Of a stretch of 64,000 nt of DNA, positions 3,818 through 32,938 are shown piece after piece; positions within the stretch are counted from its first letter, which is position 1, and every line of letters starts with the position of its first letter. The DNA lies in the NCBI RefSeq assembly GCF_009914755.1, contig NC_060947.1, one strand, 5' to 3'. The position numbers and the translations under genes were made by a program. The notes beneath the pieces are model-generated. The model searched no databases. It was not told where the DNA came from and was given only the letters and a program-made list of their open reading frames with translations. This DNA is from the human T2T-CHM13v2.0 reference genome, Homo sapiens.

Positions 3818-5088
3818 GCTGCCTAGAGGAAAGAAGCTCAGAATCAAGATGTAGGATTTGTATGCTAAAGCTCTTGAAACGTATTTCCAAAGTGCAGCTC
3901 ACTGCCCAAGTAAAGCTAGTTCTGCTTTCTAGAAGTAACAGAGAGGAAAAATAAATTTAGAAAGTGAAATGCAATCTACTCTCAAATAACCAAAATAAAT
4001 GTAGTCTCTCATATTCATATTCTCTCTCTAGGTCATTATTAAAATAGGCATGTTTGTATGTGTACATATTAATGTGATAAATTAAGGGTTATCTTCATGT
4101 GTAGCTATCTGTGTGCTTTGTATATGACCTTTCATATATAAGCATATATCTAGGAAATTCTTAACTTACTGTAATTTGTATATTATAAGCCTCCAGCCCT
4201 TAAAGCAGACTTTCAGCACACAAATACAATTATGGCAGCCAGTCTACTTTCTGATACACTGCAATTACTGCTTTCCTTGGATCCTGGCTTCAATTTGGCT
4301 CCTTGGACTAGCCTCTACCCTATATAGTTCCTCTACCCTGTGTGTGGTCAGAGGTCAACACAGCAGAAACTTTCATGGAAACAGAGGGGTAGGGTTAGAA
4401 CTACTATATCTGGCAGAAAGGGGAGAATAATGAACTAAGCTGAGTAAATGTGAGAGAGAGTAGGGAAGAGCGAAGTGGGAGGAGTATAAGAGAGAAAGAA
4501 ACCACCAGACACACATGAAAGTCAACAGTGGGGACCCTCTGACGTTTTATTAAGCTGGTGAACTGTCTCTGAAAGGAATTTCAAAAGTGGAGTTCTGAGG
4601 AACGTTAGCTTGATTTTAATGTGGGTATGGTCTTCTAGGGGTACATTGTTTCCAAGAAGAAATCTGCTCTTCAGTTTCCTGATTTCCATCTTTAACGTCA
4701 CCAAAGATCTCATTCTTTCTGACTTTTCTGGCTACCATGTCTTTAAAGTTAATCCATGGCTTTTGTGTTCTTGCACATGAATCCCATCTGAGATGTGTGA
4801 ATTTTTCTCTCAGCATCCATCCATCCAATACCAAAAATGTTTCTCCTTCTAGATTATTTATCTGCCTTACATATCATGGTATCACCACTCTCCCTGTCAC
4901 TCAGTACTGAAATCTCAGAATCTACCATGAGTAATAAACTCCAGTAGGCTCTTTCCTTGGATGGTTTATTTTCCTTGTCCACACTTCACATGAGTTCCCA
5001 CAGACTTCTTTCTTTGATTCCCATAAACTCTACACTCTCCTTTGATGATCTCACCTACTCTCACATCTTCAACTAATACTGTTATGTA

Positions 5089-5440
5089 TTAGGTTGCTGC
5101 AAAAGTAATGGCAGTTTTTGCCATAATGGTGGTGATGGTGTGAAGCAACAACATGGTGAGGGATTAAGCATTATTCTATGGATTTGGAATCAAACTCACC
5201 CCTGTGTGCCTTTGAATGGAGCCACTATTTTAATCAAAGTTTGGAGACATTTTGATGGTGTGAAATAATAACATGGTGAGGGATTAAAGGAGGAAAATTT
5301 TGATGCAGGCCGGGCCCAGGTGGGAGGATCAATTGAGCCCAGGGGTTTGAGACCAATCTAGGCAACAAAGCAAGACCCCATCTCTACAAAAAAAATTTGC
5401 CATAATGGCAAAAACTGCAATTGCTTTTGCACCAAGCTAA
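5089..5440. mobile_element. MADE1 (Hsmar1-derived mariner MITE) split by an internal ~266-bp insertion
   Basis: TA + TTAGGTTGCTGCAAAAGTAATGGCAGTTTTTGCCAT on the left; ATGGCAAAAACTGCAATTGCTTTTGCACCAAGCTAA + TA on the right. Confidence 0.9.
5130..5395 (+). repeat. Local duplication of 7032-7066 and 6945-7175 (includes a copy of the Alu left arm)
   Basis: Direct alignment by eye; about 19 differences over about 230 bp in the long piece. Confidence 0.92.
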
Positions 5441-5539
5441 TAATTCTTCATCTCCATCTCCAAACTTTCTCAGTAATGCCAGACCTAATTTCTAAAAACA
5501 TCTACATTTGTGTATCTTGCAGGCACCTGAAGTGTTGCT

Positions 5540-6775: not shown

Positions 6776-7086
6776 ATTATTTAATTAAAATTAGATACAT
6801 AAGTTCTAACATGCTAGATAAAATCTAATCTGCTTTATAATCCTACATCATAGTCATCAAAAATAGCTTAGAATAGAAAAAAACAATCTTCTAATAGTTC
6901 TATATTATTGTAGGGCCACATACAGGGCTATGGCTATGATAGAAAAGTATTATTCTATGGATTTGGAATCAAGCTCACCCTTGTGTGCCTTTGGATTTGG
7001 CCACCATTTTAATCAAAGTTTGGAGACATTTTGATGGTGTGAAGCAACAACATGGTGAGGGATTAAAGGAGTGAAATTTTGATGCA

Positions 7087-7351
7087 GGCCGGGGCCCAGG
7101 TGGGAGGATCAATTGAGCCCAAGAGTTTGAGACCAACCTGGGCAACAAAGCAAGACCCCATCTCTACCAAAAAAACTAAAAATTAGCTGCGTGTGGTGGT
7201 GGATGTCTGTAGTCCCAGCCACTCAGAAGGATGAGGCAGGAGGATGGTTGAGCCTGAGAGTCTGAGGATACAATGAGCTATGATCACACTACTGCACTCC
7301 AGCCTAGGTGACAGAGCGAGACCCTCTCTCAAAAAAAAAAAAAAAAAAAAG
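7087..7351 (+). mobile_element. AluJ with an internal deletion near the 5' end
   Basis: GGCCGGG joined directly to GCCCAGGTGGGAGGATC; J-type diagnostics; poly(A); degenerate TSD AAAT(T/G)TTGATGCA. Confidence 0.9.
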
Positions 7352-8139
7352 AATTAAAATGTTGATGCAAATCAGGGTTGGTTCATAGGGTTTAGAGGCA
7401 GGTCTGCCCTTATATCAGGTGGGAGGTGAAGCTGCTAATGTTGATGAGATGGCTGCTCAAGTTAGCCTGTTTTGAAGGCAGCAGAAGGCCAATGTTACAG
7501 GGGTATTTGAAAAAATAATAAGTACAATGAAAGCAGCAGCAAAATATATATTCTGGCATCTGTTTTTCAGGAAATCATCCAGTGACTGAAGTCTTTCTCA
7601 AAAATTTTCTTAAAAACTCATGTGCAAATTTCTTGAAAGAAGGCCTTCCAAATGAATCTAATGTCAATGTAGGTGTACCTTTTAGCTTATAATATGTTAG
7701 AATAGGAGACTTAAGAAACAAGTAAGTTAAGGCCTATGTATTCCCTGGTACTATACCAGGTAAAATATAATTTAATATAATTGGTTTCTGAATTGTTCTG
7801 TTTAATCAACTCCTAGGAGCTGTTCTGGTACATAATGTATACCTGACTAAATATGGTATTTGTGGTCATTTCTATAAAATGTCAGACATCAGGCCATGGA
7901 TCAGGAGGAACTTCCTCTATTATATAATTGTATGGGAAATCAAACTCCCAAATCTCTGGCCTTTACCAGGAGACAGGGGGCAAGATTACATGTGTTCACA
8001 TGAGAATATCAAAACTCTTTGGAATTGTACATAGGCACATTTTGGTCACTGTGTGCATGGCAGGGGAGGGGCTTAAACAACTGATTTGTATCTGTGTCCA
8101 AGAAACAGATAATAATGAGCAAACCAAAATTGATGTGGG

Positions 8140-32816: not shown

Positions 32817-32938
32817 TTTTTTTTTTTAAGACTAGTCGAGTGCAGTAGTGAGAAGTGGGGAAAGAGTAGAACAAGGAGTTAGATCTGTAACTGACTGTGA
32901 ACAATCATTCGAGATAACTTACTACCTTCAGACCAGCC
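32817..32938 (-). pseudogene. Y1 RNA (RNY1) retropseudogene, full length
   Basis: Reverse complement reads GGCTGGTCTGAAGGTAGTAAGTTATCTC...GTTCACAGTCAGTTACAGATC...CACTACTGCACTCGACTAGTCTT followed by A11. Target-site duplication AAGGCAAG at 32809-32816 and 32939-32946. Confidence 0.95.

What the first reader, a model, noticed from the sequence alone, without database searches (positions are those of the whole stretch)
5087..5442. MADE1 mariner MITE carrying captured, rearranged neighbouring DNA between its TIRs
Seen: both MADE1 arms with TA flanks are present but separated by 266 bp (5130-5395). The centre TTTGCCATAATGG is duplicated on both sides (5117-5129, 5396-5408). The cargo is a two-piece copy of DNA about 1.8 kb downstream. 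5133-5167 equals 7032-7066 exactly; it then switches through AA microhomology to a copy of 6945-7175, which re-includes the first piece and the left arm of the neighbouring AluJ. Known: MADE1 is a ~80-bp near-palindrome of Hsmar1 TIRs, and the domesticated Hsmar1 fusion SETMAR binds such TIRs. Inference: a break at the hairpin apex was repaired by iterative template switching. The product is a Pack-element-like unit (TIR-cargo-TIR) about 11 kb upstream of DIAPH2. The duplication does not fit an L1 endonuclease TT/AAAA site.
Basis: partly seen in the sequence, partly recalled or inferred. Interest (0 to 1): 0.8.

Follow-up and report, generated by a model that had tools for sequence, protein, structure and literature searches.

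The report
Palindromic MADE1 transposon split by locally copied DNA
A tiny hairpin-forming transposon relic upstream of DIAPH2 was broken at its centre long ago and patched with a two-piece copy of DNA from 1.8 kb away, and other copies of the same relic elsewhere in the genome carry the same kind of local patch.

Summary
A MADE1 element with TA flanks (5087-5442) is split by a 266-bp insert at 5130-5395. The insert is bracketed by an exact 13-bp duplication of the element's centre. Positions 5133-5167 match 7032-7066 at 35/35. Positions 5166-5395 match 6945-7175 at 92%.

The copy went from the 7-kb site to the 5-kb site. The Alu at 7087-7350 is complete and has its own target-site duplication, while the insert carries only its first 88 bp.

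The cargo exists nowhere else in this T2T genome, so nothing shows it was ever mobilised. It is not a Pack-type transposon in any functional sense.

Retrotransposition is unlikely. The A8 end is templated, the nick site is not an L1 site, and the source is local.

A partial genome survey found the pattern elsewhere. Of 30 other split MADE1 loci examined, 8 carry single-copy DNA whose only other copy lies 60 bp to 5.1 kb away.

Best reading: polymerase template switching at the palindrome centre, a small ancient analogue of the Xq27.1 palindrome insertions. The locus alone is an ordinary neutral scar. The recurrence is the interesting part, and it is only partly established.

The parts
5087..5088 (.). 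TA target-site duplication of the MADE1 insertion, left copy
   Evidence: Read. The comparator MADE1 copies show the same TA flanks.
5089..5129 (+). MADE1 left arm, running through the centre to ...CCATAATGG
   Evidence: Over 5089-5125 it differs from the majority of 91 MADE1 arm matches at 2 of 34 non-CpG sites and 1 CpG site.
5117..5129 (.). Left copy of the 13-bp duplicated centre, TTTGCCATAATGG
   Evidence: It is identical to 5396-5408 and the repeat cannot be extended on either side.
5130..5132 (+). TGG that cannot be assigned to a template. It repeats the preceding TGG and sits in a short repeated TGG/GTG motif at the left junction.
5133..5167 (+). Cargo piece 1, an exact copy of 7032-7066
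   Evidence: 35/35
5166..5395 (+). Cargo piece 2, a copy of 6945-7175. 5166-5307 is unique DNA, 5308-5395 is the first 88 bp of the source Alu, and 5388-5395 is an A8 run that ends the piece.
   Evidence: 92.2%, K2P 0.084. One search places the end at the A-run of the Alu linker.
5396..5408 (.). Right copy of the 13-bp duplicated centre
5409..5440 (+). MADE1 right arm
   Evidence: many genomic MADE1 matches at 88-98%. In one search the stretch 5404-5440 differs from the majority at 2 of 35 non-CpG sites and 1 CpG site.
5441..5442 (.). TA target-site duplication, right copy
6945..7175 (+). Source of the cargo. 7032-7066 was used twice.
   Evidence: It is the only other copy in the genome.
7087..7350 (+). 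Complete old Alu at the source, with an internal deletion in its left arm and a 20-nt A tail. It is flanked by its own target-site duplication (7074-7086 and 7356-7369; TTGATGCA is exact).
   Evidence: Read. It differs from the majority of 73 Alu matches at 33 of 205 non-CpG sites.

Best explanation
A 73-bp MADE1 element, a near-perfect palindrome, suffered a break or a stalled, disengaged nascent strand at its centre. The damage was repaired by DNA polymerase template switching onto nearby DNA of the same chromosome.

Inferred order of events:
1. A 3' end at ...CCATAATGG (5129) primed in a short TGG/ATGG microhomology at 7032 and copied 35 nt.
2. It jumped back 121 nt through AA to 6945.
3. 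It copied 231 nt, across the start of an old Alu, and fell off at the end of an A-run (7175).
4. It was joined without homology to the other end, which still carried 13 nt of the centre. That overlap produced the 13-bp duplication.

The product is a neutral, fixed, one-off scar. It was not captured by a transposase and it has not moved since. The same process has left similar scars in other MADE1 copies.

What is shown: the anatomy, the direction of copying, the local single-copy source, the lack of other copies, and the recurrence at other MADE1 loci. What is inferred: the polarity and order of the switches, and the initiating lesion (hairpin or cruciform nicking versus fork stalling).
For: - **Anatomy and junction microhomologies:**
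- **Direction of copying:** the source Alu is complete with its own target-site duplication, whereas the copy stops in the Alu linker.
- **Polarisation by chr13 relative:** a 72% chr13 relative of 6958-7094 agrees with the source at most differing sites.
- **Polarisation by other Alus:** 37 other Alus show 3 copy-derived changes against 1-2 source-derived changes in the Alu part.
- **DNA template rather than RNA:** the A8 end corresponds to the source's own A-run.
- **No L1 site:** the implied nick site has no T-rich side.
- **Local source:** it lies 1.8 kb away on the same strand.
- **Hairpin potential:** the element with one copy of the 13-mer folds as single-stranded DNA into a 35-bp stem with a 3-nt loop. 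Its energy is -29.3 kcal/mol against -4.5 +/- 1.9 for shuffles.
- **Recurrence:** 8 of 30 other split MADE1 loci have interiors whose only other genomic copy lies 60 bp to 5.1 kb away on the same chromosome. Five are direct and three inverted, at 85.7-94.8% identity.
- **Duplicated centre elsewhere:** by my reading, most of these also carry the MADE1 centre on both sides of the insert (6 to about 27 bp).
- **Flank control:** 16 of 206 non-repeat flank segments have a local match, against 8 of 13 interiors. Fisher p = 6e-6.
- **Known analogue:** insertions into the centre of the 180-bp Xq27.1 palindrome are explained by hairpin formation, nuclease cutting and MMBIR with 1-2 bp microhomology (PMC6489244, passages read).
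Against: - The right junction has no microhomology.
- A 13-bp flanking duplication plus an A-run end are also what target-primed reverse transcription leaves.
- No outgroup sequence was available, so the uninterrupted MADE1 is inferred and not seen.
- Piece 1 is 35/35 identical to the source, while the same 35 bp inside piece 2 has 3 changes. The chance of 0 changes in 35 bp at the piece-2 rate is 0.058. This is unexplained and could mean two events.
- A causal role for the palindrome is not proven. The survey pattern can only detect insertions in the central ~32 bp of an element. It covered only 4 gap windows. Part of the examined set was picked by eye as non-retroelement. The flank control measures local duplication, not insertion rate.
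- Duplications as long as 26-27 bp at other loci fit hairpin-tip nicking poorly.
Confidence: 0.62

Rival explanations
1. Abortive gap repair after transposase excision. Hsmar1 transposase excised the MADE1. The gap was refilled from the sister chromatid by synthesis-dependent strand annealing. The two nascent tails passed the centre, folded back instead of annealing, and one switched to nearby DNA before end joining. The 13-bp duplication would then be the overlap of the two tails.
For: - It explains overlaps of any length, including the 20-27 bp centre duplications read at other loci.
- Abortive gap repair is the model invoked for the origin of MITEs and deleted copies of mariner-type elements. 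Only the search listing was seen.
- Per-lineage divergence of copy and source is about 0.042. That is not clearly lower than the 4/69 non-CpG divergence of the arms from the family majority.
Against: - Copy-source distances at the nine loci range from 0.054 to 0.159. That suggests events spread over time, not one burst when the transposase was active.
- The whole element is retained, whereas abortive repair usually deletes internal sequence.
- No excision footprint can be tested.
Confidence: 0.17
2. L1 reverse-transcriptase event. A local transcript ending in the A-rich Alu linker was reverse transcribed at a staggered nick in the MADE1 centre. The enzyme jumped templates at the 5' end, as in chimeric retrocopies, which produced the 13-bp duplication.
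For: The 13-bp flanking duplication, the insert ending in A8 next to it, microhomology at the 5' junction, and a template jump. Many MADE1 centres are true L1 targets: 23 of 27 split elements with a 300-330 bp gap hold Alu insertions, judged from the printed ends.
Against: - The primer strand would end ...GGCAAA-3', which cannot pair with an A-run, and the site has no T-rich side.
- All eight A's are accounted for by the source.
- The source lies 1.8 kb away. At all 8 other loci with a single-copy source it lies within 5.1 kb. Retrotransposition does not predict that.
Confidence: 0.07
3. Chance target. This is a generic local dispersed duplication that happened to land in a MADE1. The palindrome played no part and merely makes the insertion recognisable without an outgroup.
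For: No per-base rate for non-palindromic DNA was measured. Non-transposon insertions in general are often local duplications (recalled, not tested here).
Against: - At least 10 locally templated events were found in four narrow size windows, set against 1721 intact elements under the same pattern (about 55 kb of central sequence).
- About 31 kb of non-repeat flank held one dispersed duplication of >=84% identity, and that one brackets a MADE1.
- The centre duplications flanking the inserts recur from locus to locus.
Confidence: 0.1
4. Functional Pack-type element. The TIR-cargo-TIR unit was made or used as a mobile, cargo-carrying transposon.
For: The shape only: intact TA flanks and both arms.
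Against: - There is no second copy of the cargo or its junctions in the 3.1-Gb genome.
- The cargo is non-genic.
- Each arm already differs from the family majority at 3 positions.
Confidence: 0.03

Closest known systems
Xq27.1 180-bp palindrome insertions (hypertrichosis, XX sex reversal and other phenotypes)
   Same: Duplicated DNA is inserted at or near the centre of a hairpin-forming palindrome. Junctions have 0-2 bp homology. [quoted passage not shown]
   Different: Those inserts are tens to hundreds of kb, mostly from other chromosomes or distant regions, recent and pathogenic. They occur at one unique palindrome. Here the insert is 266 bp from 1.8 kb away, ancient and fixed. The substrate is one member of a dispersed repeat family, and several members show the same scar.
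FoSTeS / MMBIR templated insertions and short-range template switches
   Same: Serial switches primed by 2-4 nt microhomology, a backward jump that duplicates template, and nearby templates. Only the abstracts of PMC8421209 and PMC7954356 were seen, in the listing.
   Different: Those are usually described at breakpoints of large rearrangements or as events of tens of bases. Tying them to the centre of a MITE with a flanking duplication of the centre was not found in the searches made.
L1-mediated retrocopies and chimeric retrogenes
   Same: A flanking duplication of typical length (13 bp), an A-rich 3' end, a template jump, and 5' microhomology.
   Different: No L1 nick site, no untemplated poly(A), and a local unspliced source. 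Other MADE1 cases have inverted or immediately adjacent sources.
Pack-MULE / Pack-type cargo-carrying DNA transposons and filler DNA from abortive gap repair
   Same: TIR-cargo-TIR architecture. The cargo was acquired by repair synthesis with template switching.
   Different: There is no amplification, no gene fragment and no internal deletion of the element. The centre is duplicated, not lost.

Membership tests
MADE1 (Hsmar1-derived MITE) | Two ~37-bp terminal inverted repeats of the Hsmar1 type | tested here: met
   Each arm differs from the majority of 91-92 genomic MADE1 arm matches at 3 positions, one of them a CpG site. The arms are 88% complementary to each other. The definition comes from PMC1784062 (passages read).
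MADE1 (Hsmar1-derived MITE) | TA target-site duplication | tested here: met
   TA at 5087-5088 and 5441-5442. The comparators show the same.
MADE1 (Hsmar1-derived MITE) | About 80 bp, with only ~6 bp between the repeats | tested here: inconclusive
   The present element is 352 bp. With the insert and one 13-mer removed it is 73 bp with a shortened centre. Short-centre copies exist elsewhere (L026 and L034). The uninterrupted state is inferred, not observed.
Pack-type cargo-carrying transposon | Cargo between intact transposon ends | tested here: met
Pack-type cargo-carrying transposon | Mobilised: more than one copy of ends plus cargo at different sites | tested here: not met
   Whole-genome searches with 5087-5442 and with 5100-5305 found only the locus itself and its source, apart from Alu matches.
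Pack-type cargo-carrying transposon | Cargo is host gene fragments | tested here: not met
   The cargo is intergenic DNA related to an old repeat (72% chr13 relative) plus 88 bp of an Alu.
L1-mediated retrocopy | Flanking target-site duplication of 7-20 bp | tested here: met
   13 bp exact
L1-mediated retrocopy | Untemplated poly(A) tail | tested here: not met
   A8 aligns to C+A7 of the source. A is one of the common states at that position among 37 other Alus: 8 have A and 22 have T.
L1-mediated retrocopy | Nick at a TTTT/AA-like site | tested here: not met
   The implied site is GGCAAA/AACTGC. The consensus site itself is recalled.
Palindrome-centre insertion by MMBIR-type repair | Breakpoint at the centre of a hairpin-forming palindrome | tested here: met
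   The duplicated 13-mer spans the 3-nt loop of the predicted hairpin. The two implied nicks lie 3 and 7 nt 3' of the loop on the two strands.
Palindrome-centre insertion by MMBIR-type repair | Insert is a duplicated copy of other genomic DNA, joined with little or no homology, sometimes in several pieces | tested here: met
   Two pieces. The junctions are a TGG/ATGG repeat, AA, and none.
Palindrome-centre insertion by MMBIR-type repair | Dependence on replication or break-repair factors | not testable with these tools
   Needs experiments.

The most novel reading that the evidence does not exclude
MADE1 elements, of which thousands of near-perfect 80-bp palindromes are scattered through primate genomes, would be recurrent germline fragile points. 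Breaks or stalled forks at the hairpin centre would be patched by copying DNA from within a few kb, leaving a characteristic scar: a duplicated centre plus a locally templated insert, direct or inverted. The family would then be a natural, datable archive of palindrome-induced template-switch repair over about 50 million years. It would also be a predictable class of sites for new structural variants, possibly modulated by SETMAR bound to the arms.
Probability: 0.45. Interest if true: 0.72.

Novelty: new variant of a known kind. Interest (0 to 1): 0.55.

Why it matters
By itself the locus is a neutral scar 10.7 kb upstream of DIAPH2, with no sign of function.

Its value is as a clean worked example. 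A recognisable palindrome marks the exact insertion point and the duplicated overlap without any outgroup. Every template switch can therefore be read base by base.

If the recurrence holds up, it matters in two ways. Nine loci including this one came from a partial scan. A whole repeat family would then act as a set of small fragile palindromes repaired by local template switching. That would link MITE biology to the palindrome-instability and MMBIR literature. It would also give a testable prediction for where small dispersed duplications arise in human genomes.

Tried and rejected
- **Rfam:** the region gave only sub-threshold chance-level hits. One was an Alu-derived mir-1285 match at 29.7 bits against a gathering score of 56. 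There was no MADE1-derived microRNA family hit.
- **One wide-gap pattern scan:** Gap ranges are limited to 30, so only four 30-bp windows plus the normal-gap denominator were scanned.
- **Exact 14-mer pattern, gap 150-180:** found nothing.
- **Fetching flanks for all candidates:** Thirteen candidate places were never examined. Eleven places were judged only from the 80 nt printed at each end.
- **L063:** it first looked locally templated. I withdrew it because its interior is an L1 fragment with hundreds of genomic matches.
- **L044 and L065:** dropped as split MADE1 candidates because their interiors are repeat families.
- **Excess of copy-side substitutions as a sign of error-prone synthesis:** about 10 copy-derived against 3-4 source-derived changes. 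Six of the ten sit in two clusters, so this is not significant.
- **Dating the event against Hsmar1 activity:** inconclusive. The arms give only 4/69 informative differences.
- **Literature:** four searches for MADE1 with template switching, microhomology or palindrome terms returned no paper describing templated insertions in MADE1. The one structural-variant paper that mentions MADE1 was opened, but the passage shown did not bear on this.

Full report
**1. The observation**

The layout is TA (5087-5088), a MADE1 left arm (5089-5129), a 266-bp insert (5130-5395), a right arm (5409-5440) and TA (5441-5442). The 13-mer TTTGCCATAATGG is present at 5117-5129 and again at 5396-5408. The bases outside the two copies differ on both sides, so the duplication is exactly 13 bp.

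Alignment gives the following.
- 5133-5167 = 7032-7066, 35 of 35.
- 5166-5395 = 6945-7175, with 18 mismatches and one 1-base gap in 230 positions.
- The pieces overlap by AA.
- 5130-5132 (TGG) has no unique template. It sits in a short TGG/GTG repeat shared by the MADE1 end and the start of piece 1.

**2. Is it a MADE1, and what was it before?**

A whole-genome search with the right arm returned dozens of matches at 88-98%. Thirteen complete comparators show the expected TA-flanked palindromes, mostly about 80 bp. Each arm here differs from the majority of 91-92 arm matches at three positions, one of them a CpG. The published definition is two 37-bp repeats around 6 bp (PMC1784062, passages read).

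With the insert and one 13-mer removed, the element is 73 bp with a shortened centre. Copies L026 and L034 share this variant. As single-stranded DNA it folds into a 35-bp stem with a 3-nt loop. Its energy is -29.3 kcal/mol, against -4.5 +/- 1.9 for shuffles.

**3. Direction, uniqueness and age**

The Alu at the source (7087-7350) is complete. It has a 20-nt A tail and its own target-site duplication (7074-7086 and 7356-7369). The insert contains only the left duplication and the first 88 bp of the Alu, ending at the A-run of the linker. The copy therefore ran from the 7-kb site to the 5-kb site.

Whole-genome searches with the element, with the non-Alu cargo, and with the source found only these two copies. 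A 72% relative of 6958-7094 on chr13 marks an old repeat.
- That relative, and piece 1, agree with the source at most differing sites.
- 37 other Alus polarise the Alu part as 3 copy-derived against 1-2 source-derived changes.
- Overall there are about 10 copy-side and 3-4 source-side changes. Six of the ten lie in two clusters, so this is not a significant excess.

K2P between copy and source is 0.084. The source Alu differs from the Alu majority at 33 of 205 non-CpG sites, so the copy was made long after the Alu arrived. Whether it post-dates Hsmar1 activity cannot be settled from 4/69 arm differences.

**4. RNA or DNA?**

A 13-bp duplication and an A-rich end look like L1 work, but three things argue against it.
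- All eight A's match the source run. The source has C+A7, and A is one of the common states at that C among other Alus.
- The primer strand would end ...GGCAAA-3', with no T's.
- The source is 1.8 kb away on the same strand.

The survey below makes locality the rule, which retrotransposition does not predict.

**5. Survey of split MADE1 copies**

I scanned the window's own genome for two conserved 17-mers of the arms with up to 3 mismatches, at four gap windows.

| Gap between motifs | Places found |
|---|---|
| 180-210 | 7 |
| 300-330 | 27 |
| 120-150 | 12 |
| 150-180 | 10 |
| 20-50 (normal) | 1721 |

Notes on the table:
- The 300-330 window recovered this locus, which serves as a positive control.
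- One place occurs in both.
- Two places are the X and Y pseudoautosomal copies.

In the 300-330 window, 23 of 27 places are Alu insertions by their printed ends. The usual MADE1 centre contains a TTAAAA-like L1 site, which this short-centre copy lacks.

I could examine 30 loci besides this one.
- All 7.
- The first 15.
- 6 of the 12.
- 2 new ones.

The last eight include seven that I picked by eye as not looking like retroelements.

Classification of the 30 loci:

| Interior | Loci |
|---|---|
| Alu | 14 |
| L1 3' end | 2 |
| L1 fragment, ambiguous (L063) | 1 |
| Other repeat family (L044, L065) | 2 |
| Unique, no other copy anywhere (L041, L062) | 2 |
| Not checked beyond +/-2 kb, doubtful arm (L068) | 1 |
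| Only other genomic copy is nearby | 8 |

The eight local cases are listed below.

| Locus | Source position | Orientation | Identity |
|---|---|---|---|
| L035 (chr6) | 0.84 kb upstream | direct | 91% |
| L039 (chr3) | 1.2 kb downstream | direct | 93% |
| L040 (chr4) | 2.1 kb upstream | direct | 86% |
| L043 (chr6) | within 60 bp | inverted, includes the adjacent arm | 95% |
| L059 (chr2) | 0.75 kb upstream | inverted | 87% |
| L064 (chrX) | 1.25 kb upstream | direct | 93% |
| L066 (chr5) | about 1 kb downstream | inverted, plus a second small direct piece | 94% |
| L067 (chr12) | 5.1 kb downstream | direct | 90% |

Identities are over aligned bases. Every interior that has exactly one other copy in 3.1 Gb has it within 5.1 kb.

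By my reading of the sequences, most of these also carry the MADE1 centre on both sides of the insert.
- 8 bp in L035.
- 10 bp plus an inverted centre in L039.
- 14 bp in L040.
- About 20 bp in L064.
- About 27 bp in L067.
- 26 bp in the source-less L062.

As a control, 150-bp flank segments of the same 14 loci were compared with their surroundings in the same way. Of 291 segments, 214 were not common repeats. Of those, 24 had a local match, and 8 of the 24 were simply the sources of the MADE1 interiors. That leaves 16 of 206. Against the 8 of 13 interiors counted at that stage, Fisher p = 6e-6. After the non-repeat denominator is 11.

This control shows that local copies are unusual for a random segment. 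It does not measure an insertion rate per base, so a true hot spot is suggested and not shown.

**6. Mechanism**

The anatomy fits polymerase template switching on DNA.
- A 3' end just past the palindrome centre primed in a 3-4 nt repeat.
- A backward jump went through AA.
- Synthesis ended at a homopolymer run.
- The end was joined without homology to the other end, which overlapped the first by 13 nt.

If the lesion was nicking of the two extruded hairpins, both nicks lie 3' of the loop, 3 and 7 nt away. If it was a stalled fork or a displaced repair strand, 13 nt is the distance between the points of departure and return. The longer centre duplications at other loci fit this second picture better.

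The closest published case is the 180-bp Xq27.1 palindrome. Duplicated DNA is inserted near its centre with 1-2 bp homology. The proposed mechanism is hairpin formation, nuclease cutting and MMBIR (PMC6489244; PMC7999016).

A transposase-era variant, abortive gap repair after excision, remains a live rival. The spread of copy-source distances (0.054-0.159) argues mildly against a single early burst.

**7. What it is not**

It is not a functional Pack-type element. It exists as one copy only and its cargo is non-genic. No role for SETMAR was tested.

**8. Unexplained**

Piece 1 is identical to the source, while the same 35 bp inside piece 2 carries three clustered transitions. The chance of this under equal age is 0.058. 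Two successive events, or error-prone synthesis of piece 2, remain possible.

**9. Verdict**

It goes too far in calling the product Pack-like.

The single locus is a new member of a known kind of scar. The recurrence across MADE1 copies is a new variant of palindrome-centre repair. I did not find it described in four literature searches of the held library. It needs a complete, controlled survey.

Noticed in passing
window 32826-32938 (-): Full-length match to the Y RNA family (RF00019): 67.3 bits against a gathering score of 38, E = 8.6e-12. It lies in DIAPH2 intron 1 and is probably a Y RNA retropseudogene.
   Followed up: no
27 genomic places listed; loci L045-L058: Split MADE1 elements with a 300-330 bp gap are nearly all Alu insertions into the element's centre (23 of 27 by their printed ends). 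The usual centre carries a TTAAAA-like L1 nick site. The short-centre copy in this window lacks it.
   Followed up: partly
L041 1051-1350 and 1865-2148: A complete MADE1 plus a solo arm on chr1 sits between the arms of a ~285-bp inverted duplication at 96-99% identity. This may be a fold-back product centred on the element.
   Followed up: no
L043 1501-1719: A chr6 MADE1 with several partial tandem copies of its own inner arm and centre, plus a 47-77 nt inverted copy of its own right arm and adjacent flank. It looks like repeated snap-back switching.
   Followed up: partly
L044 1520-1715: MADE1-like arms enclose a ~185-bp interior that is itself a repeat family. It gave 375 first-look candidates at 85-88% identity, so it is a separate non-autonomous mariner-type family and not a split MADE1.
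   Followed up: no
window 6958-7094 and L013 1501-1636: The non-Alu part of the source has a 72% relative on chr13. The captured DNA is therefore itself part of an old, unnamed interspersed repeat.
   Followed up: partly
window 5252-5270 and 5213-5219: The copy-side substitutions cluster: three transitions within 5 bp and three changes within 4 bp. This could be a trace of error-prone repair synthesis or just chance.
   Followed up: partly
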